64,000 bases of DNA, from NCBI RefSeq assembly GCF_051903065.1, contig NZ_CP178438.1. The stretch is one strand, 5' to 3'. Below are positions 53,530-63,903 of the stretch, piece after piece. This DNA is from Escherichia coli (GTDB taxonomy: Bacteria; Pseudomonadota; Gammaproteobacteria; Enterobacterales; Enterobacteriaceae). Both the position numbers and the translations under genes were made by a program. The notes under the pieces were generated by a model. It ran no database searches. It saw only the letters and a list, made by a program, of their open reading frames with translations, and was not told the DNA's origin. Every line of letters begins with the position of its first letter. Within the stretch, counting starts at the first letter, position 1.

Positions 53530-54171
53530 TTACGAGTTTGACTGGAAATCTTCAATTATCTTCTGATTGTAATCATCCAGATACTTTTGCAGTTCATCCC
53601 TGTCGATCAGACGTACCAAGGCTGATTCAGCTAACTCTTTCGCAGAGCGAGTGAGTAGGAATTAGTCACAACCATCGCCTCATCACAACCATAGAATGTT
53701 TTAGCAGAGATCACCTGCTGCACCGCCGAGTTACCTACAGAACCAGAATAATTTTTCGCCTGAATAACCATATCCTTACCAAATCGAGTGACGAAGAGAT
53801 CTGCCCCCTGATCTTGCGTTCTCTTGGTTTCTTTGACGTCATAGCCCATAGTCTGGAATACTTCCACAAGGAAATCTTCAAACTGGAAACCGTCCATTGC
53901 ATCAACTAAATACATGGTGACGAATTTGTTAGGGTTAAAATGTTCGAGCCGTGTAGCTAATCTATCAACCAGAATATCAAAATAAATATGTTCGCACACA
54001 GCTAAGTATTTTTTAACTTCATCAAATGAAACTAAAGGAACACCAGGCGTAGCCTCCACTTTTTCATTGAACTCTACTGATGAGAACTCTATTTTATTGC
54101 TCCATATATAGAATAGAAACAATGAAAGATCTGCCCTAAAAGTGGTACCCGCTTCCTCAATCCATGACTTC
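53530..54171 (-). pseudogene. Mrr-like (PD-(D/E)xK) restriction endonuclease pseudogene: 5' truncated by IS1, frameshift near 3' end
   Basis: ORF 53631..54185 has Mrr_cat-like ...GADLFVTRFGKDMVIQAKNYSGSVGNSAVQQV...; its apparent TTG start lies inside the IS1 end; -1 frame past the stop reads AKELAESALVRLIDRDELQKYLDDYNQKIIEDFQSNS. Confidence 0.7.
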
Positions 54172-54226
54172 GGTGATGCTGCCAACTTACTGATTTAGTG
54201 TATGATGGTGTTTTTGAGGTGCTCCA

Positions 54227-54502
54227 GTGGCTTCTGTTTCTATCAGCTGTCCCTCCTGTTCAGCTACTGACGGGGTGGTGCGTAACGGCAAAAGCACCGC
54301 CGGACATCAGCGCTATCTCTGCTCTCACTGCCGTAAAACATGGCAACTGCAGTTCACTTACACCGCTTCTCAACCCGGTACGCACCAGAAAATCATTGAT
54401 ATGGCCATGAATGGCGTTGGATGCCGGGCAACAGCCCGCATTATGGGCGTTGGCCTCAACACGATTTTACGTCACTTAAAAAACTCAGGCCGCAGTCGGT
54501 AA
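54227..54502 (+). CDS. insA: IS1 InsA
   Basis: 91-aa [25 protein letters not shown]... Confidence 0.95.
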
Positions 54503-54924
54503 CCTCGCGCATACAGCCGGGCAGTGACGTCATCGTCTGCGCGGAAATGGACGAACAGTGGGGCTATGTCGGGGCTAAATCGCGCCAGCGCTGGCTGTTT
54601 TACGCGTATGACAGGCTCCGGAAGACGGTTGTTGCGCACGTATTCGGTGAACGCACTATGGCGACGCTGGGGCGTCTTATGAGCCTGCTGTCACCCTTTG
54701 ACGTGGTGATATGGATGACGGATGGCTGGCCGCTGTATGAATCCCGCCTGAAGGGAAAGCTGCACGTAATCAGCAAGCGATATACGCAGCGAATTGAGCG
54801 GCATAACCTGAATCTGAGGCAGCACCTGGCACGGCTGGGACGGAAGTCGCTGTCGTTCTCAAAATCGGTGGAGCTGCATGACAAAGTCATCGGGCATTAT
54901 CTGAACATAAAACACTATCAATAA
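54421..54924 (+). CDS. insB: IS1 InsB (expressed as InsAB' by -1 frameshift at A6C, 54476..54484)
   Basis: 167-aa [19 protein letters not shown]...; slippery TTAAAAAAC present. Confidence 0.93.
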
Positions 54925-55001
54925 GTTGGAGTCATTACCGCCGCTTCACGCAATATCATTTCAGGCTGGCCCGGGAGCTTAATATTCCTCCCCAGGCAAT
55001 C

Positions 55002-55364
55002 GTGTATGCCAATCTACTGGCGTGGGATTACGACGGACTGACCCCTCTCAATCGCCCTCAAAATGAAGTGCAGGAAGTTATATTAGCCTCGCTGAAGCTG
55101 CTGGCGGTACAAATTAAACACCTTGAGCCTGATTTCATCATCTTTGCATCTGGAGCCCGGAGAACAGACTACATCATAAAACAGGTGCTTACTGAGCTGG
55201 GCGGCTATGAGACTTCTGCAGTCATTCCGGGGAAGCTATGGGAGTTCAAAACAGGTAATGCAATCTGTTTCAGAATTGCCCATCCAAGGGCTATGCGCGG
55301 ACACAAGAAGTACAGAGATGAGGTGATTGCACGAATTAAGCAACTTTGTACTCAGGGTGGCTAG
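55002..55364 (+). CDS. hypothetical protein, possibly 5'-truncated gene remnant
   Basis: 120-aa ORF from GTG; frame stays open back to the IS1 junction (54942), so likely a C-terminal fragment. Confidence 0.4.
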   Translation: MYANLLAWDYDGLTPLNRPQNEVQEVILASLKLLAVQIKHLEPDFIIFASGARRTDYIIKQVLTELGGYETSAVIPGKLWEFKTGNAICFRIAHPRAMRGHKKYRDEVIARIKQLCTQGG

Positions 55365-55938: not shown

Positions 55939-58900
55939 TTATGCCAATTCAGACTCAAACGCTGCATCATTCGCTTCAGCCTCTGCGCCATCAATTAATG
56001 CCAAGACTCGGTCAAGAAAGCGTTGCGCTTCGTATACATCTGTTGCTTGCCGCAGATAATGAGGTATTCGTTCAACAAACTCGGAACGTGATAAAGGCTG
56101 ATGTTCCAGCAAAGCCTCAAGCATTGCGGGCCGCAACAAACGACGATCAGCATCAACATTAGGAAGCTCAACCTCAATGACATGTGTGGCAAAATACTTA
56201 AGTTGCTCCTTAAGCCCCAAATTGGGCATAAGAGAATCAATTGAGTCAGACGCCACTTCAGCGCTTGACTCAATCGTTTCTACATATTCATAGGAAGGTA
56301 CAACAACGTCTGGAGCCAATGTTTTAAGCTCATGGAGTTTACGGATAATCGGAGATAGAACCTCATCAGGATTACTGAACCAATCAGTGGACCAAATGCG
56401 GCTAATTCTCCAACCCAAACGCTCCAGAACCTCTTGACGCAAACGGTCACGATCACGAGCAGATTTAGCTGAGTGATAAGCCGCACCATCACACTCTATG
56501 CCCATTAAGTAACGGCCAGGACAACCTGGATCTTTCACAGCTAGATCAATAAAGAATCCTGCAACCCCTACCTGAGGTTCACACTCAAACCCAGCGTGAT
56601 TGAGTGCTTCCATTACAGCAACCTCAAAGTCACTATCTGGAGCCCTGCCGGTATGCGTTGTGAGGGAATCTAGTTTGCCACTTTCGGCAAACTGTAAAAA
56701 ACCTTTCAACGAAATAACACCAAGTTTACTGATTTCACTCGTCAATACATCTTCAGAACGCATTGAACTAAACACATGCATCCGTTTTTTTGATCGAGTG
56801 AAAAGCACATTCAAGCGACGCCAGCCAACATCGGAATTGATAGGTCCAAAGCGTTGATAAACCTTTCCACCATGCTCAGAAGGTCCATAGGTAAAGGAAA
56901 TAAAGATTACATCACGCTCATCCCCTTGAACGTTCTCAAGGTTTTTCACAAAAAGTGGCTCTTCCATGGCATATAAGCCATCGATTGCATCGTTAAATTC
57001 AGGGCGATTTCGGCGCAATTCATCGATAGCGCGCTCAATTTGATCGCGTTGCTTGGAACTCATGGCCACTACCCCGAGTGACTCACCCGGCCGGTGTTGC
57101 GCATGATGAAGTACGGCCTCAGCAACTGCTTGGGCTTCTTCAATATTGTGTTGATTGGAGAACCGACCTTTTGACACATAGGTAAATTTAATCCCATACT
57201 CTGGAGACTCAGCATTTGGGGAAGGGAATATCACCAAATCACTGTTATAAAAATGGCGGTTAGAGTATGCAATCAACTTTTCATGTCGTGAACGATAGTG
57301 CCAACGCAAACGTCTCATAGGAAACAGTGGCAAAGCAGCATCCAAAATGCTGTCAGTATCACTTAAAGCCGCGGCATCATCGTCATCTTCTCCGTCGGCA
57401 CTTCGATCAAAGAAACTGGTTGGTGGTAGCTGTTTCGGGTCACCAACGACCACTAGTTGCTTGCCCCTCGCGATGACACCCAATGCATCCTCTGGCTTCA
57501 CCTGAGACGCTTCGTCCATCACCACCAGATCAAATTCCATTCGTCCAGGTTCTAGGTAATGAGCTGCTGACATTGGCCCCATCATGAAACAAGGTTTAAT
57601 TGCAACCAGCGCATTACATGCACGGTTAACCAATTGCCTAATTGGAATATGTCTGGTTTTTTTACCCAACTCATTTTTGATCAAAGCTAGTTCTGTATAT
57701 TCACTTTTCTTACCACCAGAATTCCCTTCTGGTATATTTCGGCAAGCAATTTTTGCTGCAATCCGCTGACGTTGTAATTCAATCAGTTTTTTATCGTAAT
57801 CTTTAAATGACTTCTGCAAAGCATTGCGCTGTGAGCCGGAAACTCTCATCAATTCAGGGTGGATGTGAATAACCTCCCGCGCCAGCTGGTCATGAATTGC
57901 TAATGCTAAACCCAATTCAACTTTTTCAATCGGGAGCGAGCCCGCAAGTACAGCACTCCAGATTCGCTGCAATCCATTTTCATGCATCTGCTCGTAACAA
58001 CGAATAAAGTTAACCCACCCGTTCAACCAACGGGGTTGCTGTATTGCTCTTTCGTTGCGCTCGATTAATGTATTAAGAGAACCATCAGTCGACTTGAGCC
58101 ACTGACTCCGCTCTAACTTTGTTTCTAGCGCATATAACTCAGCATTTTTAATCTGTTCATTCCATTTCGAAACTATTTCCCCACCATCACGACATAGTAA
58201 ATCGTAATCACTACCACTAGCCAAATGTCTGATCTGGGTAGCCAAGGATACGCAATTTATCTTATCAACCAGTTGCTCGGCAAAATTCAGCGTGTCGTTA
58301 ATAGTGTCTAACGTCAGTTGATTATTTTTATACGCACCGCAAGCCAATGGGGTTAATTGTAAAAACGCCCCTAACTGTAACGAGTCATTTTCAAGGGATA
58401 TCTGAAGATCGTTTATGTTTTGCAAAATCTCGGAGGAATGAGTCATCTGCTCTAATGATATATCTGGATTGATAAACCATCCCTGCAAGGCAATGAGAGT
58501 ATTCCGCACCTGTCGGTAAGATTGCATCAATACACCTTGCTCACCTAACCAAGATGCATGTTCTTCCAACAAGCTAGAAATACGCGGTAATAACTTAGCC
58601 TCGTGCTCGACCCGTTTAACCAAAGTCATTAATCTTGAGCTAATCTGCGATTTCTCGATTAAATGCACACCTTTGATAATCTCACCATCTAGGTTAAATA
58701 ATCCAGAGCCTATCGCAACTCGCTTTCCAAAACCTATCCCGTAACAAGCTCGGACCTTCTTGTACCAATCACGCAATAACATGAGTTGTTCACAGTCGGT
58801 GTCCAACCCTCGGAATGCATTACCAAGTTGATTACCAAAGTCACTTTGTTCAAACCGTTGTAACAGCTCCGAATACTTGAGCAAATCAGCTGAGCAGCGT

Positions 58901-61686
58901 TTTAACTCAGCAAACTTAGTGTCAGGCTTACGAGATTGCGCCATGAGCAGTGCCTTGGCACTACGCCAATCACTCTTAAACCATGCAAATAATCCCCCTT
59001 GCTGGATAACAGCAACGGCATGCGCGAGCATCTCTTGGGAAGGCAACTGGTCCAATTGATACAAAGTAGATAGACCATCTCTTAAAGGACGCAATGTTTC
59101 GATTTGACACATTAAGTCGCGCAATACTGCATCGATATCATCATCATCAAAAAGAGGATCTCGAACTCTAATAAGCTCAGTCGGTAAAGCACCCAGAATC
59201 GACAACAACTCAGAGCAGAATAGCAATCCAGCTTGCGAATCATCGATATACGAAGCAATACCATCTGGCAAAGCATTTTTGAAATCGTTTAATTGCGCAT
59301 AAATAGATGATAACTCATCATGAATTGATTGGATGGATTCAAGCCACCTGACCAAATCACGTAAAGTGAAATCCTCTGCTGCACCATATTTTTCCAGCTC
59401 TTCACGAGGAAAGTCACACGATTGTCCTTGTTCTAAAAGTCGTAGCTTTTGAGGCTCGATAACCTGGCTCAAGGCCACATAATGACCTTGTAGCAACTCG
59501 AACCTATCTAAATAGTGACGCACCCGTGCAATGGCATCGGGTGAATCTAGCTCACTAAGTGCTGGGAAATGCTCTGAACCACACAACACTGGAAGATTCG
59601 ACTGATCTTCTACCAATTGCTCAATATATTGAAGCGTATTAAGGCTTTCGCCTTCTAACGCCCACTTATCTACATATTCTTGATAGCTATGTTGAAAGTC
59701 GATAATTGATGTCTGCCAAGTTTGTAGCAAATCGACTATACGAGCGCTGTCAAACAATTGAATTTGTGTGTTATTCACACCGCTCCAAGGGTGCTCATAT
59801 ATTTCTGCATTAGCCCCCACCTGCTCACGAACCTCTTTGTAGATGCGGCTAAACTCTACTATTTGGTCACGCAGCCGTAATTGGGTCACTTTATCCAACT
59901 GCTTCCCGGAAAGGTTTTCGATATGAAGTGCTGTTGCATCAATATCTAATTTGTGACGATAACGGGTTGCACCACTCAAAATCTGATGGATCGTTTTGCC
60001 TGTTTGCGCCCATTGGTTATTGATCAATGCGGCATATTCATTGAGCTGCTGCTTAAGATCTTCATAACGCAAAATCTGAGCATCAATCTCTTCCATAGTA
60101 GGCATGGTCGCCTGACTCACCAAGCGAGCATTAATATCATCCAGCACCTTGCGCTTATGAGTTTTATGACTGTGCAACTCTAAGCAAAATTGACCTAGCC
60201 CCGCACGATCCAAGCGACGTTTGACGACCTCCAGTGCAGCCATCTTCTCTGCCACAAACAGGACTTTCTTACCGTTGAGCAGAGCTGCTGCAATCAAGTT
60301 GGTGATCGTTTGTGATTTGCCACTACCAGGAGGGCCCTCAATGACTAAGTTTTGACCACGGATAGCATCGATCAACGCACTGTGCTGCGAGCTATCCGCA
60401 TCATCGATTAGTGGAACCTTGTCATGAATATCAGGGTAACTATCGATGCAGTACTCATGCTGACCGAAGCCACCAGGTAAGCCGGAATTCTCTTGACCAC
60501 AGCTCTGACTGGTGAAAAAGCGACGAATTACTTCATGAGACAATATATTGCGCTTGTCACAAGGCCAGCGGGCAGGATCGAGGTCAAGATACATCATCAT
60601 CTTGCCAAAATTGAGCAAGCTAAGTGCACCATAACGTTTCACAGACCATTTAGGTTTGTGCTGCTCTACAACCTTCTTCACCGAAGCAAAATAAGACTCT
60701 GGAGTTTCCTCTTCATTGAACAAAGGAAGAGCGAGGCCAAAGTCAGCCTGAAGTTTTTCCTTCAAAGAGAGATTGGGCAAAATATCTTCACCCGTGTAAT
60801 AAAGTTGAAACTTGTAAAGACCATCCTTCGGATCTAATTTTCCTCGTTCACATCTCACCGGAATTGTAAATAACGGTGCATAACGTGCCTTTTCAGAGGA
60901 ATCGCTTTCATACCACTCAAGGAACCCTAACGCCAAATACAAGATGTTGGCGCCACTCTCCTCCAAAGCAGTTTGAGCCTTACCATAGATGGCGCGCAAA
61001 CAAGCTTCCAGTTCATTTGGATAAAGCAGAGCCTGTATCCGATTATCGTCATGAGAGGGATTGGAAGAAGATATACTAATCTCATTCCCAGCCTTTGCCT
61101 GTCGTTCAAAATCCTCAAGCCCTTCATAGCCTGCTAAGCAGCACGCCTCCTTCAACGCTGACAAAGCTATACCTTGATTAACGTATTCAGAACGAATCCC
61201 TGTTAATTTTCCATTCTGGCCTTGGGCATATTGCAAGATAAACTGATGGGCTTTTTCCAGCAACTCTCTATCTGAATCAGAAACAACCGTTTTATGGCTA
61301 TCTGGTAAATCAAAATCTGTACGGATTCCTAAGACGTGCGCCCAATCCTTAGCGCTAGGATGAGCTCTTAACTGTATATCTTTACCATCTGGCCCAACTT
61401 TGAGATAGCCATGCTCTAACAGCTGCGCTCTAGTTGGATCGGGCACAGGAGCAAATTCCATCGGGATTTCCGAGCAAAGGGTTTCATAAAGCTGTTCTGG
61501 TAATTCATCAACAATACGTAGTGAAGACCCTTTTTGAGTGATAGGGAAATTCAAAAGTCGATTTCGAGACGTAAGGTCCAATAACTTCTTACGCATAGCC
61601 TCGAGGGAAGTCAGAATAAAATCTGAGCCTCCTTGATTGAGTTCCTCTGCTGTAGAGGTATCTACAGTCGACATAATGTTCTCCAT
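55939..61686 (-). CDS. giant helicase-nuclease (1915 aa): DUF4011-like N-terminus, Upf1-like SF1 helicase with ~940-aa insertion, C-terminal Vsr/DUF559-like nuclease domain
   Basis: LLDLTSRNRLLNF and LALGFLEWYE near N-terminus; Walker A GPPGSGKS (res 451-458, nt 60313..60336); DEAS (res 1391-1394, nt 57505..57516); VVVGDPKQLPP; GDERDVIFIS; GWRRLNVLFTRSKKRMHVF; C-terminal FFIDLA...IECDGAAYHSAKSARDRDRLRQEVLERLGWRISRIW (nt about 56377..56628). Confidence 0.85.
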   Translation of the reverse strand: MENIMSTVDTSTAEELNQGGSDFILTSLEAMRKKLLDLTSRNRLLNFPITQKGSSLRIVDELPEQLYETLCSEIPMEFAPVPDPTRAQLLEHGYLKVGPDGKDIQLRAHPSAKDWAHVLGIRTDFDLPDSHKTVVSDSDRELLEKAHQFILQYAQGQNGKLTGIRSEYVNQGIALSALKEACCLAGYEGLEDFERQAKAGNEISISSSNPSHDDNRIQALLYPNELEACLRAIYGKAQTALEESGANILYLALGFLEWYESDSSEKARYAPLFTIPVRCERGKLDPKDGLYKFQLYYTGEDILPNLSLKEKLQADFGLALPLFNEEETPESYFASVKKVVEQHKPKWSVKRYGALSLLNFGKMMMYLDLDPARWPCDKRNILSHEVIRRFFTSQSCGQENSGLPGGFGQHEYCIDSYPDIHDKVPLIDDADSSQHSALIDAIRGQNLVIEGPPGSGKSQTITNLIAAALLNGKKVLFVAEKMAALEVVKRRLDRAGLGQFCLELHSHKTHKRKVLDDINARLVSQATMPTMEEIDAQILRYEDLKQQLNEYAALINNQWAQTGKTIHQILSGATRYRHKLDIDATALHIENLSGKQLDKVTQLRLRDQIVEFSRIYKEVREQVGANAEIYEHPWSGVNNTQIQLFDSARIVDLLQTWQTSIIDFQHSYQEYVDKWALEGESLNTLQYIEQLVEDQSNLPVLCGSEHFPALSELDSPDAIARVRHYLDRFELLQGHYVALSQVIEPQKLRLLEQGQSCDFPREELEKYGAAEDFTLRDLVRWLESIQSIHDELSSIYAQLNDFKNALPDGIASYIDDSQAGLLFCSELLSILGALPTELIRVRDPLFDDDDIDAVLRDLMCQIETLRPLRDGLSTLYQLDQLPSQEMLAHAVAVIQQGGLFAWFKSDWRSAKALLMAQSRKPDTKFAELKRCSADLLKYSELLQRFEQSDFGNQLGNAFRGLDTDCEQLMLLRDWYKKVRACYGIGFGKRVAIGSGLFNLDGEIIKGVHLIEKSQISSRLMTLVKRVEHEAKLLPRISSLLEEHASWLGEQGVLMQSYRQVRNTLIALQGWFINPDISLEQMTHSSEILQNINDLQISLENDSLQLGAFLQLTPLACGAYKNNQLTLDTINDTLNFAEQLVDKINCVSLATQIRHLASGSDYDLLCRDGGEIVSKWNEQIKNAELYALETKLERSQWLKSTDGSLNTLIERNERAIQQPRWLNGWVNFIRCYEQMHENGLQRIWSAVLAGSLPIEKVELGLALAIHDQLAREVIHIHPELMRVSGSQRNALQKSFKDYDKKLIELQRQRIAAKIACRNIPEGNSGGKKSEYTELALIKNELGKKTRHIPIRQLVNRACNALVAIKPCFMMGPMSAAHYLEPGRMEFDLVVMDEASQVKPEDALGVIARGKQLVVVGDPKQLPPTSFFDRSADGEDDDDAAALSDTDSILDAALPLFPMRRLRWHYRSRHEKLIAYSNRHFYNSDLVIFPSPNAESPEYGIKFTYVSKGRFSNQHNIEEAQAVAEAVLHHAQHRPGESLGVVAMSSKQRDQIERAIDELRRNRPEFNDAIDGLYAMEEPLFVKNLENVQGDERDVIFISFTYGPSEHGGKVYQRFGPINSDVGWRRLNVLFTRSKKRMHVFSSMRSEDVLTSEISKLGVISLKGFLQFAESGKLDSLTTHTGRAPDSDFEVAVMEALNHAGFECEPQVGVAGFFIDLAVKDPGCPGRYLMGIECDGAAYHSAKSARDRDRLRQEVLERLGWRISRIWSTDWFSNPDEVLSPIIRKLHELKTLAPDVVVPSYEYVETIESSAEVASDSIDSLMPNLGLKEQLKYFATHVIEVELPNVDADRRLLRPAMLEALLEHQPLSRSEFVERIPHYLRQATDVYEAQRFLDRVLALIDGAEAEANDAAFESELA

Positions 61687-61860
61687 TTCTTAGGGTCCAC
61701 AAGTAAAACGTTTTATGCTGATGCATCACAAAAAGACCGCAGTAAACTGCTGCAAAGAAGAGGAGATTTTTAGTCTCCCCTTCTTTATCAATCAGATCAT
61801 ACAATCAACTTAACGCCCATTAGTTGATAGCAGCCAAATTTCATAAACAGATTCAATCCG

Positions 61861-63903
61861 TTATTGCTGAATTTGATTGGATAGTAAGACCTGCAACATA
61901 TCTTGTTGATGCACAGCTATCTCATCTTCCAGCCAACGACCTTTATCTTTCATCAGCCGAATCATAGCAAGCAATTTAAGACTATCAGTCTGGTTATTGG
62001 CAAGGCTTGCTTCAAAGTGCTCCTGCTTCTGTTGCGGCTGGAAGTTACTCAAGCGCGAGTTCTTGCTGTGGCTGATAAGGCAAAGGTTGCCAAACGAATG
62101 GAGTGCACTCTGCTCAACCGGTTTATAGCCATCCATCGGATGCTGGGGTGAGAAGTGCTCCACCGAGCTGCGGAAAGTGAACTCAAAGGAGCCAGCAACT
62201 TTGTCGCTATTCCGATCTCGTACCCACAGCAGATAGTCGAGGAAGTTGAAGACAAAGTTGTTCTCGATATGACCGAAGCGAAGTTTGGATGTAATCACCT
62301 TGTGCCAACTCTCATCCACATTGATGGCGGGCAACAGGGCGTTATCAAGGTAGAGCATCTGGTAATAGGAAGCCCCTTCACCAGGCGCCAAAAAGCGCTG
62401 GAAGACAAAGCGGCGAGCCTGACTCTCCAGATAGGACAGATAAGCCCCGGCATCCACCGGTTGATCAGGGTGACAATTGTCGAACAGATATCTCAGTGCA
62501 CCATTCAGCCAATGTTTGTAAACCAGGGTCGGGGTCGACACATGAAACGCCGACAGCAACATCAGGACCCGCCGGTTAACACCAGAGAAACCATTCTCAT
62601 TTTCATCCTTGTCAAAGGTATTGATGTAACTGACGCTCTTTTCCGAATACCAGTGCAGCCGCTTCAGACTCCAACTATCCTTGCCATCGGCAAACTCGCG
62701 CTTGATGATGAACTGATCAAACAGATACTTGCTCTTTAACAGGCCATAGATAAAACGCTGAACTGCCGCTACTGGATCCGGTTGCCTTATCACTCGCAGC
62801 TCAAACTGATCGACCAGTTGTTTATCATCAAGCGGCACCCCCTCCGTATCACCCGGGTCGCGGCTCACGAGTCGCAGCACATGGAGCAAGAAGTTGGAGA
62901 AGTTGATGACGCTGTTAAAGCGCTCGGAGCCTGCGCTCTCCTCCTCCACCGTCTGCTCACCATCAAGCTTGTCATCCTGCAAAATGGCCAACAAGGTGCG
63001 CCCTTGGCTACCGGCAGCTGCACGGCTTTTATCGGCAGCGTCGGCCGTGTTTGGGGATCCTAGCAGATCAAGCAGATGGGCAAAGTCACGGGGCACAAAC
63101 TGACCCCAGTCGCTCTCACCAAACAGACGGTGGCGCTCTTGCGGGGTAAAGCCGTACTGGATATAGCGCTCCATATTGGCGCAGGCATCCCATACCCGGG
63201 TCAGGATATGAATACTTTGGCGACGATGCTCTTCCTCGGGTATCTGGTTCAGCGTCTCCATCAGCCGCGCCTTGATCACTTCATGCTTTTCCAACTGCTC
63301 GCCGCGATTGTTCATCGCCTCGAAGAAGTGATTGAGATCGGTATCCTTGGGTACTTCGATACGAGAGATCTGCACATGCTTGAAGAGGTAGTCGCAAAAG
63401 GTCGTCAGTTTAGCCCCTACCAAACCAAGATCCGCCATTGCCTTGCCAATCAGCTCAAAACCGTTCACCAAACCTTCATTGAAGGTACTCCCCCGCAAAT
63501 CGTAGGGGGCAACACCCTGCCATAAGCGCTCGAAGGTATGGCTCGATATCGGGCGACTCTCAAAAGCGAGGTTGATGGTCTGATACCAGCTCATATCCAC
63601 CGAATCTATCGCGTGATGTTTGAGCCAATTGGCCAGCAGAGAGAGGGTAGTAAAGCGCTGCTGGCCATCGATTACCTCGAAACTGCCATCGTCCCGGGCA
63701 AACACCACCAGGGTGCCGATATAGTAGGTTTGCGGCCCCTTACCACTGACCAATTTTTGCTGATAATCCAGCACATCCTGCAGCAGCTGGGTGATCTCTC
63801 CCTCACCCCAGGCATAGTTGCGCTGGTACATGGGCACCAGATAGCGGGCGCGATCTTCAAGCAGTGCACGAATGGAAAAGGGGCGAACGCCTGCATCATT
63901 CAT
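61861..63903 (-). CDS. DUF262 (ParB-like NTPase/nuclease) + DUF1524 (His-Me finger) protein, GmrSD-like putative type IV restriction enzyme
   Basis: N-terminal [16 protein letters not shown] and [12 protein letters not shown] (res 79-83); C-terminal [12 protein letters not shown]...[18 protein letters not shown]. Confidence 0.85.

What the first reader, a model, noticed from the sequence alone, without database searches (positions are those of the whole stretch)
55939..56628. C-terminal nuclease-like domain plus uncharacterised 145-aa tail
Residues about 1687-1770 carry a D...ExD...H...R...GW pattern typical of Vsr/DUF559-type endonuclease folds. The final 145 aa (LPNVDADRRLLRPAMLEALLEHQPLSRSEF...) match nothing I recognise and could be a targeting or autoinhibitory module.
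Basis: inference. Interest (0 to 1): 0.55.

Follow-up and report, generated by a model that had tools for sequence, protein, structure and literature searches.

The report
Hhe defence protein's nuclease and tail
This stretch is the C-terminal end of Hhe, an already catalogued single-gene anti-phage helicase-nuclease of E. coli: a Vsr/DUF559-type nuclease domain, a floppy acidic linker, and a small helical domain that looks like the HRDC accessory domain of RecQ helicases, so the gene is ordinary and only the tail's fold assignment is new.

Summary
Window 55939-56628 (-) encodes residues 1687-1915 of a 1915-codon ORF (55939-61686, -). That ORF is the known anti-phage protein Hhe. It scores 2735.9 bits against NCBIfam NF042953 (cut-off 2000) and 4302.8 bits full-length against PADLOC Hhe. 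It is 100% identical to a RefSeq gene annotated hhe.

The nuclease reading is correct. Residues 1687-1784 match Pfam MTES_1575 over the whole model (E 7.5e-38) and DUF559 in part. D1714, E1731, D1733, H1738 and G1758-W1759 are invariant or nearly so in 40 homologues. The AlphaFold2 model resembles I-Bth0305I, a DUF559 protein and RAP domains. It is not Vsr proper.

The "145-aa tail" has four parts:
- the last nuclease helix (to 1787);
- a disordered, acidic, length-variable linker (1788-1823);
- a conserved five-helix domain (1824-1899);
- a variable acidic end.

I infer that it works as a substrate-targeting or self-regulating module. This is untested. Overall the gene is already known, with a modest annotation gain.

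The parts
55939..61686 (-). hhe gene: a 1915-codon ORF. RefSeq starts it at codon 5 (window 61674), giving 1911 aa. It is a single-gene anti-phage helicase-nuclease.
   Evidence: NCBIfam NF042953 Hhe_antiphage scores 2735.9 bits against a cut-off of 2000. PADLOC Hhe scores 4302.8 bits over 1-1911 of 1911. The DNA is 100% identical to a RefSeq gene annotated hhe, WP_065944754.1.
60751..61587 (-). N-terminal DUF4011 domain (residues 34-312).
   Evidence: Pfam PF13195, E 3.3e-37, whole model.
56764..60396 (-). Split SF1 (Upf1/Dna2-like) helicase core. AAA_11 covers 431-622 with Walker A GPPGSGKS. AAA_11 also covers 1382-1424 and AAA_12 covers 1459-1641. A roughly 760-residue unannotated insertion (623-1381) lies between them.
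   Evidence: Pfam hits.
56326..56628 (-). MTES_1575/DUF559-type (Vsr-like, PD-(D/E)xK superfamily) endonuclease domain, residues 1687-1787. The predicted catalytic residues are D1714 (56545-56547), E1731 (56494-56496), D1733 (56488-56490) and H1738 (56473-56475).
   Evidence: Pfam MTES_1575 at E 7.5e-38 and DUF559 at E 3.9e-6. The residues are invariant in 40 homologues. AlphaFold2 pLDDT is above 90 except for one loop block at 70. Foldseek finds 3r3p at TM 0.78, 3hrl at TM 0.70 and RAP domains.
56218..56325 (-). Disordered acidic linker, residues 1788-1823 (KTLAPDVVVPSYEYVETIESSAEVASDSIDSLMPNL).
   Evidence: pLDDT is about 50. In the family its length runs from 30 to 71 residues, with median 27% acidic and 3% basic residues. 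The mean top-residue frequency is 0.29, against 0.81 in the nuclease domain.
55990..56217 (-). Conserved HRDC-like five-helix domain, residues 1824-1899. Its motifs are R1849-L-L-R1852-P and I-P1875-x-Y1877-L-R1879.
55942..55989 (-). Variable acidic C-terminal end, residues 1900-1915 (GAEAEANDAAFESELA). The stop codon is at 55939-55941.
   Evidence: pLDDT is about 56-66. It is not conserved: 3-20 residues in homologues, top-residue frequency 0.25. The NCBIfam Hhe model ends at residue 1898.

Best explanation
The region is the effector end of Hhe, a known single-polypeptide anti-phage helicase-nuclease. It has three elements.

(1) A metal-dependent endonuclease domain of the MTES_1575/DUF559 branch of the Vsr-like restriction-endonuclease fold (residues 1687-1787). 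Its acidic triad D1714/E1731/D1733 plus H1738 is intact and invariant, so it is most likely the catalytic effector.

(2) A disordered acidic tether of about 36 residues.

(3) A C-terminal 76-residue domain with the HRDC fold. This is a divergent relative of the accessory domain that follows the helicase core in RecQ, BLM, WRN and Sgs1, and that also occurs in RNase D and Rrp6.

Shown here: the identity as Hhe, the nuclease family and its conserved residues, the domain boundaries, the family-wide conservation of the tail, and the predicted HRDC-like fold.

Inferred: the tethered HRDC-like domain works as HRDC domains do elsewhere. It would either hold the enzyme on a particular nucleic-acid structure (single strands, forks or replication intermediates made by the phage), or dock back on the ATPase or nuclease to keep the enzyme quiet until such a substrate appears. 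The SF1 motor then feeds nucleic acid to the nuclease. I put about 0.9 on the identity and the nuclease assignment, about 0.8 on the HRDC-like fold, and about 0.4 and 0.35 on targeting and autoregulation as the tail's main job.
For: Identity. NCBIfam Hhe equivalog scores 2735.9 bits against a cut-off of 2000. PADLOC Hhe matches full-length. RefSeq annotates the identical gene as hhe, and it occurs in 308 of 5426 complete E. coli genomes. hhe is used as a working single-gene 'helicase and nuclease' defence in two phage-genetics preprints.

Nuclease. MTES_1575 matches at E 7.5e-38 over the whole model, and DUF559 matches in part. D1714, E1731, D1733, H1738 and W1759 are invariant in 40 homologues. 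Foldseek finds I-Bth0305I 3r3p (TM 0.78), DUF559 protein 3hrl (TM 0.70) and RAP domains. E. coli Vsr itself finds 3r3p by sequence (E 4e-4) and shares the RDR...LGW...W segment with Hhe.

Standalone module. Homologues have unrelated neighbours.

Context for sensing DNA metabolism. T7 class II DNA-metabolism genes were flagged as hhe triggers.
Against: The HRDC assignment rests mainly on a predicted structure. Pfam HRDC is below threshold in every member. hhalign probability is only 4-16%. Foldseek E-values are 1.3-2.6.

The domain is mildly acidic (net -3; family median -2; 71% of members negative). That argues against a generic DNA-binding surface and fits a protein-docking role at least as well.

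No biochemical data on this domain or on Hhe's substrate were found in the held literature. The founding paper (Gao et al. 2020) could not be read.

DNA versus RNA as substrate is open. The best sequence and Foldseek hits of the nuclease are RAP domains of mitoribosomal proteins, and the helicase core resembles Mokosh/Upf1-like helicases.
Confidence: 0.75

Rival explanations
1. The HRDC-like tail is mainly an intramolecular brake or a protein-protein interface, not a nucleic-acid-targeting module. It would dock on the ATPase cleft or the nuclease, with help from the acidic linker. Release by a phage cue would switch the enzyme on.
Against: Three basic positions (R1849, R1852, R1879) and Y1877 are among the best-conserved polar residues. 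R1848/R1849 align with the E. coli RecQ segment that contains Y555, which I recall as a DNA-binding residue. The two-domain AlphaFold2 model gives no confident docking (pTM 0.54 with a low-confidence linker). That model covered only residues 1675-1915, not the helicase.
Confidence: 0.35
2. The tail is not HRDC-related at all. It would be a family-specific helical bundle, or a divergent DUF3320 or winged-helix module of the kind found after the nuclease in other helicase/MTES_1575 proteins. The HRDC resemblance would then be a coincidence of small helical folds or a bias of the structure predictor.
For: No significant sequence match to HRDC in Pfam or PDB. Foldseek E-values exceed 1. There is a weak OmpR-type winged-helix hit at E 0.17 and one Trans_reg_C member hit. 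From my recollection of Pfam architectures, related helicase-nucleases carry DUF3320 at this position.
Confidence: 0.15
3. The C-terminal nuclease-fold domain acts on or binds RNA, like eukaryotic RAP domains, rather than cutting phage DNA. Hhe would then be an RNA-directed helicase-nuclease.
For: The best PDB sequence hits and the top Foldseek hit are RAP domains of mitoribosomal proteins. RAP is a sub-threshold Pfam hit in 39 of 40 members at E<=0.1. The helicase core is closest to Mokosh MkoA/MkoC and IGHMBP2-type Upf1-like helicases. HRDC domains also serve the RNases RNase D and Rrp6.
Against: The closest catalytic relatives with known substrates cut DNA: I-Bth0305I, Vsr and TnsA. The reported T7 trigger candidates are DNA-metabolism genes. 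Nothing here tests substrate choice.
Confidence: 0.2
4. The nuclease-like domain is a degenerate, non-catalytic fold used only for binding.
For: RAP-type relatives in mitoribosomes are structural RNA binders. No assay exists for this protein in the literature I could read.
Against: All predicted catalytic residues and the surrounding motifs are invariant across 40 homologues at 46-69% identity. The domain is the most conserved part of the C-terminus, with top-residue frequency 0.81.
Confidence: 0.07

Closest known systems
Hhe (hhe), a single-gene anti-phage system. From my own knowledge it was first reported by Gao et al. 2020, Science 369:1077; that paper is not held in the library. It is catalogued as NCBIfam NF042953 and PADLOC PDLC02194.
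   Same: It is this protein. The match is full-length above the curated cut-off, and the DNA is 100% identical to genes that RefSeq annotates as hhe. It has the same DUF4011, split SF1 helicase and Vsr-type nuclease architecture.
   Different: Nothing differs at the gene level. The databases and the papers I could read do not name the last ~130 residues, which are here split into a linker plus an HRDC-like domain.
PADLOC candidate PDC-S37 and NCBIfam ProA (anti-phage protein ProA).
   Same: They are paralogous DUF4011/SF1-helicase/MTES_1575 proteins. The window protein scores 1267 bits against PDC-S37 and 1133 bits against ProA. Some PDC-S37-like proteins carry the same tail.
   Different: The ProA score is below its cut-off of 1500, and the match stops at residue 1798, so ProA's C-terminus differs. 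The PDC-S37 profile does not cover the first ~1000 residues well.
MTES_1575 (PF18741), DUF559 (PF04480), I-Bth0305I (3r3p), NGO0050 (3hrl), RAP domain and E. coli Vsr: the Vsr-like branch of the PD-(D/E)xK fold.
   Same: They share the fold and the core motifs: D on the second strand, E-x-D-G, H, R-D-R...L-G-W and R-x-W. TM-scores are 0.70-0.78 to 3hrl and 3r3p.
   Different: Compared with Vsr proper, there is no Pfam Vsr match and only 23 alignable columns. From motif alignment (inference), Hhe has acidic E1731/D1733 where Vsr has F62/H64. Hhe has none of Vsr's Zn-binding Cys/His (and direct reading of the sequence). Unlike the free-standing enzymes, this domain is fused to a helicase.
HRDC domain (PF00570) of RecQ, Sgs1, BLM and WRN helicases and of RNase D and Rrp6.
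   Different: It fails the Pfam HRDC threshold. The host helicase is SF1 (Upf1/Dna2-like) rather than SF2 RecQ. The domain follows a nuclease domain rather than an RQC domain. The Gly-rich turn of RecQ HRDCs (GVG) is replaced by the conserved I-P-x-Y-L-R motif.
Other helicase-plus-nuclease anti-phage systems, such as Hachiman HamAB, Nhi, Hna, Gabija and Mokosh.
   Same: The general logic is the same: a helicase that surveys nucleic acid is coupled to a nuclease effector. Hachiman, for example, is described as a sensor helicase restraining a nuclease (abstract listed; Hhe is grouped with these helicases).
   Different: The helicase families, nuclease folds and subunit organisation differ. Apart from the helicase motifs, only Mokosh MkoA/MkoC match, and only at the helicase core.

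Membership tests
Hhe anti-phage protein (NCBIfam NF042953 equivalog; PADLOC PDLC02194) | Whole-protein score above the curated cut-off, with end-to-end coverage of the model. | tested here: met
   2735.9 bits against a cut-off of 2000, covering residues 27-1898 on model positions 1-1797. PADLOC scores 4302.8 bits, covering 5-1915 on 1-1911 of 1911.
Hhe anti-phage protein (NCBIfam NF042953 equivalog; PADLOC PDLC02194) | Architecture of DUF4011, split AAA_11/AAA_12 SF1 helicase and C-terminal Vsr-type nuclease, in a single gene with no conserved partner. | tested here: met
   Pfam hits. Homologues have the same Pfam series and unrelated neighbours.
Hhe anti-phage protein (NCBIfam NF042953 equivalog; PADLOC PDLC02194) | Protection against phage when expressed. 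| not testable with these tools
   There are only literature statements on hhe-bearing strains. Whether the same allele was used is unknown.
MTES_1575 restriction-endonuclease-like domain (PF18741) | Full-length, significant match to the family HMM. | tested here: met
   E 7.5e-37 to 7.5e-38 on model positions 1-96 of 96. All 40 homologues match at E<=0.001.
MTES_1575 restriction-endonuclease-like domain (PF18741) | Conserved acidic and His active-site residues on the PD-(D/E)xK-type core. | tested here: met
   D1714, E1731, D1733 and H1738 are invariant in 40 homologues. Catalysis itself was not tested.
DUF559 (PF04480) | Significant match to the family HMM. | tested here: inconclusive
   Only the C-terminal half of the model matches (positions 55-108 of 109), at E 3.4e-5 to 3.9e-6. 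38 of 40 members match at E<=0.001. The DUF559 structure 3hrl superposes at TM 0.70.
Vsr very-short-patch-repair endonuclease proper (E. coli Vsr, 1cw0/1vsr) | Sequence membership: a Pfam Vsr hit or an end-to-end alignment to Vsr. | tested here: not met
   No Vsr family appears among Pfam hits at E<=10. hhalign to E. coli Vsr aligns only 23 columns, P 0.008. Vsr chains are absent from the 50 best Foldseek hits.
Vsr very-short-patch-repair endonuclease proper (E. coli Vsr, 1cw0/1vsr) | Vsr-specific His residues and Zn-binding Cys/His cluster (from my recollection of the Vsr structures). | tested here: not met
   Reading the sequence directly, Hhe has IECDGAAYHSAKS where Vsr has IFTHGCFWHHHHC. 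The Cys ligands are absent.
HRDC domain (PF00570) | Significant match to the Pfam HRDC HMM. | tested here: not met
   No hit in the query or in the first 40 members. 3 of 94 diverse members hit at E<=0.1 (best 8.1e-3) and none at E<=0.001. HRDC is nevertheless the family hit by the most members.
HRDC domain (PF00570) | Five-helix HRDC fold. | tested here: met
HRDC domain (PF00570) | Profile-profile homology to RecQ/BLM HRDC sequences. | tested here: inconclusive
   hhalign gives P 0.0016-0.011 and probability 4-16% over 50-74 columns. 0 of 200 column shuffles reach the observed score. The HRDC side of the comparison had only 4 sequences.
HRDC domain (PF00570) | Binding of single-stranded or structured nucleic acid, or regulatory docking on the helicase core. 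| not testable with these tools
   The only indirect data are the conserved residues R1849, R1852, Y1877 and R1879 and a net charge of about -2 to -3.
DUF3320 (PF11784), the usual C-terminal domain of other helicase/MTES_1575 proteins | Match to the family HMM. | tested here: not met
   No hit at E<=10 in the query, and none at E<=0.1 in 40 and 94 members. It is also absent from the precomputed Pfam lists of homologues.

The most novel reading that the evidence does not exclude
The last 76 structured residues of Hhe are a previously unannotated, highly divergent HRDC domain grafted onto an SF1 helicase-nuclease. This tethered domain would be the switch of the system. It would recognise a phage-made DNA structure, or release the ATPase and nuclease when that structure appears. 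That would explain why phage DNA-metabolism functions rather than single proteins trigger Hhe. It would also extend the HRDC regulatory principle from RecQ-type genome maintenance to bacterial immunity.
Probability: 0.3. Interest if true: 0.45.

Novelty: already known. Interest (0 to 1): 0.25.

Why it matters
The gene itself adds nothing new. It is a textbook copy of hhe sitting in a defence island next to yecA.

What is useful is a cleaner map of its effector end. The map gives exact boundaries and candidate catalytic residues for the nuclease. It shows that the tail is a tether plus a conserved HRDC-like domain. HRDC domains are the parts of RecQ-family helicases that decide which DNA structures are acted on and that restrain the motor. 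So this gives a concrete, cheap handle on how Hhe, whose mechanism is still undescribed in the literature I could search, is targeted or kept off. The handle consists of a tail deletion and R1849/R1852/R1879 substitutions.

Tried and rejected
- **DUF3320 as the tail's identity.** This was expected from the usual architecture of helicase/MTES_1575 proteins. No hit was found in the query or in 40 and 94 homologues.
- **Vsr proper as the nuclease family.** Only a 23-column local similarity was found.
- **Sequence searches of the tail** against PDB, NCBIfam and PHROGs gave nothing except the Hhe model itself.
- **A conserved partner gene.** The upstream DUF262/HEC-06-like gene is not conserved next to homologues.
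- **Literature on mechanism.** No held paper links Hhe with HRDC or describes its biochemistry. Vassallo et al. 2022 does not mention Hhe, so my first guess at its origin was wrong. Gao et al. 2020 is not held under its DOI or its PMC id.
- **Terminator scan downstream of the stop codon.** Nothing was found on the minus strand.
- **Weak ZNFX1 sequence hits to the tail** (E about 0.4) were treated as chance.
Full report
**What is at the coordinates.** The window is E. coli chromosome, covering the otsBA, araFGH, ftnB, ftnA, tyrP and yecA region. The finding, 55939-56628 on the minus strand, is the last 229 codons plus the stop of one long ORF, 55939-61686 (-), 1915 codons.

**Identity of the protein.** The ORF is the known anti-phage protein Hhe.
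- It scores 2735.9 bits on the NCBIfam equivalog NF042953, "DUF4011 domain-containing anti-phage protein Hhe" (cut-off 2000), covering residues 27-1898.
- It scores 4302.8 bits on the PADLOC Hhe model end to end.
- The DNA is 100% identical to genes annotated hhe in RefSeq. It occurs in 308 of 5426 complete E. coli genomes.

From my own knowledge, hhe was introduced by Gao et al. 2020 as a helicase plus Vsr-endonuclease single-gene system. I could not read that paper, but a 2025 review attributes hhe to it. Two preprints use hhe as a working single-gene "helicase and nuclease" defence in E. coli. They report phage counters (DruSM1 ORF65; Bas63 g79, g80 and gp130) and triggers (Bas63 g40; several T7 class II DNA-metabolism genes).

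Pfam gives DUF4011 (34-312), a split SF1 core (AAA_11 at 431-622 and 1382-1424, AAA_12 at 1459-1641) and MTES_1575 (1687-1784).

Homologues in other organisms sit among unrelated genes. One lies beside hflKC. Another is cargo of an integrase/AlpA/DnaB-type island. This fits a self-contained module.

**The nuclease domain.**
- MTES_1575 matches over its whole length at E 7.5e-38. DUF559 matches over its C-terminal half at E 3.9e-6. RAP gives weak hits.
- In 40 homologues at 46-69% identity, D1714, E1731, D1733, H1738 and W1759 are invariant and G1758 is nearly so. The domain is the most conserved part of the C-terminus.
- The alignment-based AlphaFold2 model (pLDDT above 90 in this domain apart from one loop) is closest to apicomplexan RAP domains, the I-Bth0305I catalytic domain (3r3p, TM 0.78) and the DUF559 protein 3hrl (TM 0.70), with TnsA weaker.
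- E. coli Vsr itself aligns only over 23 columns (RDR...LGW...W). Vsr does find 3r3p by sequence.

So "Vsr-like" holds at the superfamily level, and the precise family is MTES_1575/DUF559. By motif alignment (inference), D1714 corresponds to Vsr D51, D1733 to H64 and H1738 to H69. Hhe keeps a classical acidic triad where Vsr uses histidines. The domain ends at about residue 1787, not 1770.

**The tail.** Family alignments and the model divide it as follows.
- A linker at 1788-1823. It has low confidence, runs 30-71 residues in relatives, and is about 27% acidic and 3% basic.
- A well-conserved module at 1824-1899.
- A variable acidic end.

The conserved module has the signature L-x3-L-x2-F-x3-V-I...P-x-T...R-L-L-R-P-x-M-L-E-A-L...P-x-S-K-x-E-F-x-E-x-I-P-x-Y-L-R...E-G-x-Y-L-x2-V-L-x-I-I.

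No sequence library names it. Pfam finds nothing in the query or in 40 members. PDB sequence searches find nothing significant. NCBIfam returns only the last 75 positions of the Hhe model, and PHROGs returns nothing.

A profile of the module finds 734 clusters among 1.84 billion representatives. In the full-length proteins among the 150 best hits (1550-1970 aa, Hhe or PDC-S37-like), the domain sits at the C-terminus, with one exception that continues for about 116 residues.

**HRDC-like fold.** Reading the alignment, I suspected an HRDC domain (note). Four tests followed.
2. Foldseek independently ranks 2rhf, 1wud and 1d8b first, at TM 0.52-0.62. Its E-values are not significant, at 1.3-2.6.
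3. I checked my recalled RecQ HRDC sequence against PDB and it was identical to 1wud. I then aligned four HRDC sequences. hhalign between the tail profiles and these gives a collinear alignment over 72-74 columns, with P 0.0016-0.002 and probability 13-16%. None of 200 column-shuffled controls reaches the score: 20.0 observed, against a mean of 9.45, standard deviation 2.04 and maximum 17.8.
4. When 94 diverse tails are scanned one by one against Pfam, HRDC is the family hit by the most members: 3 at E<=0.1, best 8.1e-3. Every other family is hit by one or two.

None of the sequence tests reaches a formal threshold, but all four lines point the same way. I rate the HRDC-like fold at about 0.8. 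True homology remains unproven. No held paper mentions Hhe together with HRDC.

**How it most likely works.** What is shown: a conserved, apparently catalytic nuclease is tethered by a flexible acidic linker to a conserved HRDC-like domain, at the end of an SF1 helicase known to defend against phage.

What is inferred from established knowledge of HRDC domains: in RecQ and Sgs1 the domain binds single-stranded or branched DNA and sets substrate preference. In BLM and bacterial RecQ it also docks on the ATPase core and modulates activity. In RNase D and Rrp6 it helps hold RNA.

By analogy, the Hhe tail either anchors the enzyme on phage replication or recombination intermediates or acts as a releasable brake. 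The conserved R1849, R1852, Y1877 and R1879 favour a phosphate-binding patch. R1848/R1849 align with the RecQ segment containing Y555, which I recall as a DNA-binding residue. The overall negative charge (median -2; 71% of members negative) and the acidic linker favour a protein-docking or DNA-mimicking brake. The report that several T7 DNA-metabolism genes, rather than one protein, trigger hhe fits sensing of a nucleic-acid state.

Whether the substrate is DNA or RNA is open, because the nearest folds include RAP domains and the motor is Upf1/Mokosh-like.

**Comparison and novelty.** The gene is already known, and its nuclease is part of its published description. It is not ProA (1133 bits against a cut-off of 1500), although it is related to ProA and to PDC-S37. 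The only new element is the dissection of the tail and its HRDC-like assignment, which current Pfam and NCBIfam annotation does not carry. That is a modest but testable annotation gain.

**Verdict.**
The nuclease call is right. The tail has been resolved into parts, but its role is untested.
- Novelty: already known.
- Interest: 0.25.

Noticed in passing
window 61861-63903 (-), continuing beyond the window end (L001 14923-18409): Directly upstream of hhe lie two DUF262 genes. The first (680 aa) matches PADLOC HEC-06, Orf5, SspE and type IV methyl-directed restriction models, so it is a GmrSD/SspE-like candidate restriction enzyme. It is not a conserved neighbour of Hhe homologues elsewhere. 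A pipolin study lists hhe and HEC-06 together among rarely exchanged defence cargo.
   Followed up: partly
window 53631-55364: Downstream of hhe there is a decayed stretch. It holds an N-terminally truncated Mrr-like restriction endonuclease (matching the ZorD nuclease end and PDC-S02), an IS1A copy (about 54227-54924) and a truncated hypothetical gene (55002-55364). RefSeq marks the first and last as pseudogenes.
   Followed up: partly
window 56001-62000: G+C falls to 0.43-0.45 across hhe, against about 0.50-0.54 in most of the window. This fits horizontal acquisition of the island beside yecA.
   Followed up: no
L001 18434-23748 (beyond the window): The same island continues with IS remnants, an M48 metallopeptidase, a type I restriction R subunit and a second YecA/YgfB-family gene. 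The defence island is therefore bracketed by yecA-like genes, which may mark a recurrent integration hotspot.
   Followed up: no
window 61674-61686: The ORF's first ATG (MENIM...) lies four codons upstream of the start used by RefSeq and by the PADLOC model (MSTVD...). Residue numbers in the finding are therefore RefSeq numbers plus 4.
   Followed up: yes
window 57544-59820 (-), residues about 623-1381: A roughly 760-residue stretch with no Pfam match splits the helicase core between the Walker A half and the motif II/AAA_12 half. It is conserved enough to be part of the Hhe models, but its role is unknown.
   Followed up: no
window 55990-56217 (-), tail profiles A2 and A4: Both tail profiles give weak, non-significant hits (E about 0.4) to the N-terminal region of human ZNFX1, an innate-immunity Upf1-like helicase. 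This is probably chance but was seen twice.
   Followed up: no
L003-L005 1-5268: A 1905-aa Hhe homologue is carried just after an integrase, an AlpA-like regulator and a DnaB-type helicase gene. That suggests it is cargo of a satellite or integrative element. Another homologue (L002) sits alone between hflKC/DUF2065 and a resolvase remnant.
   Followed up: partly
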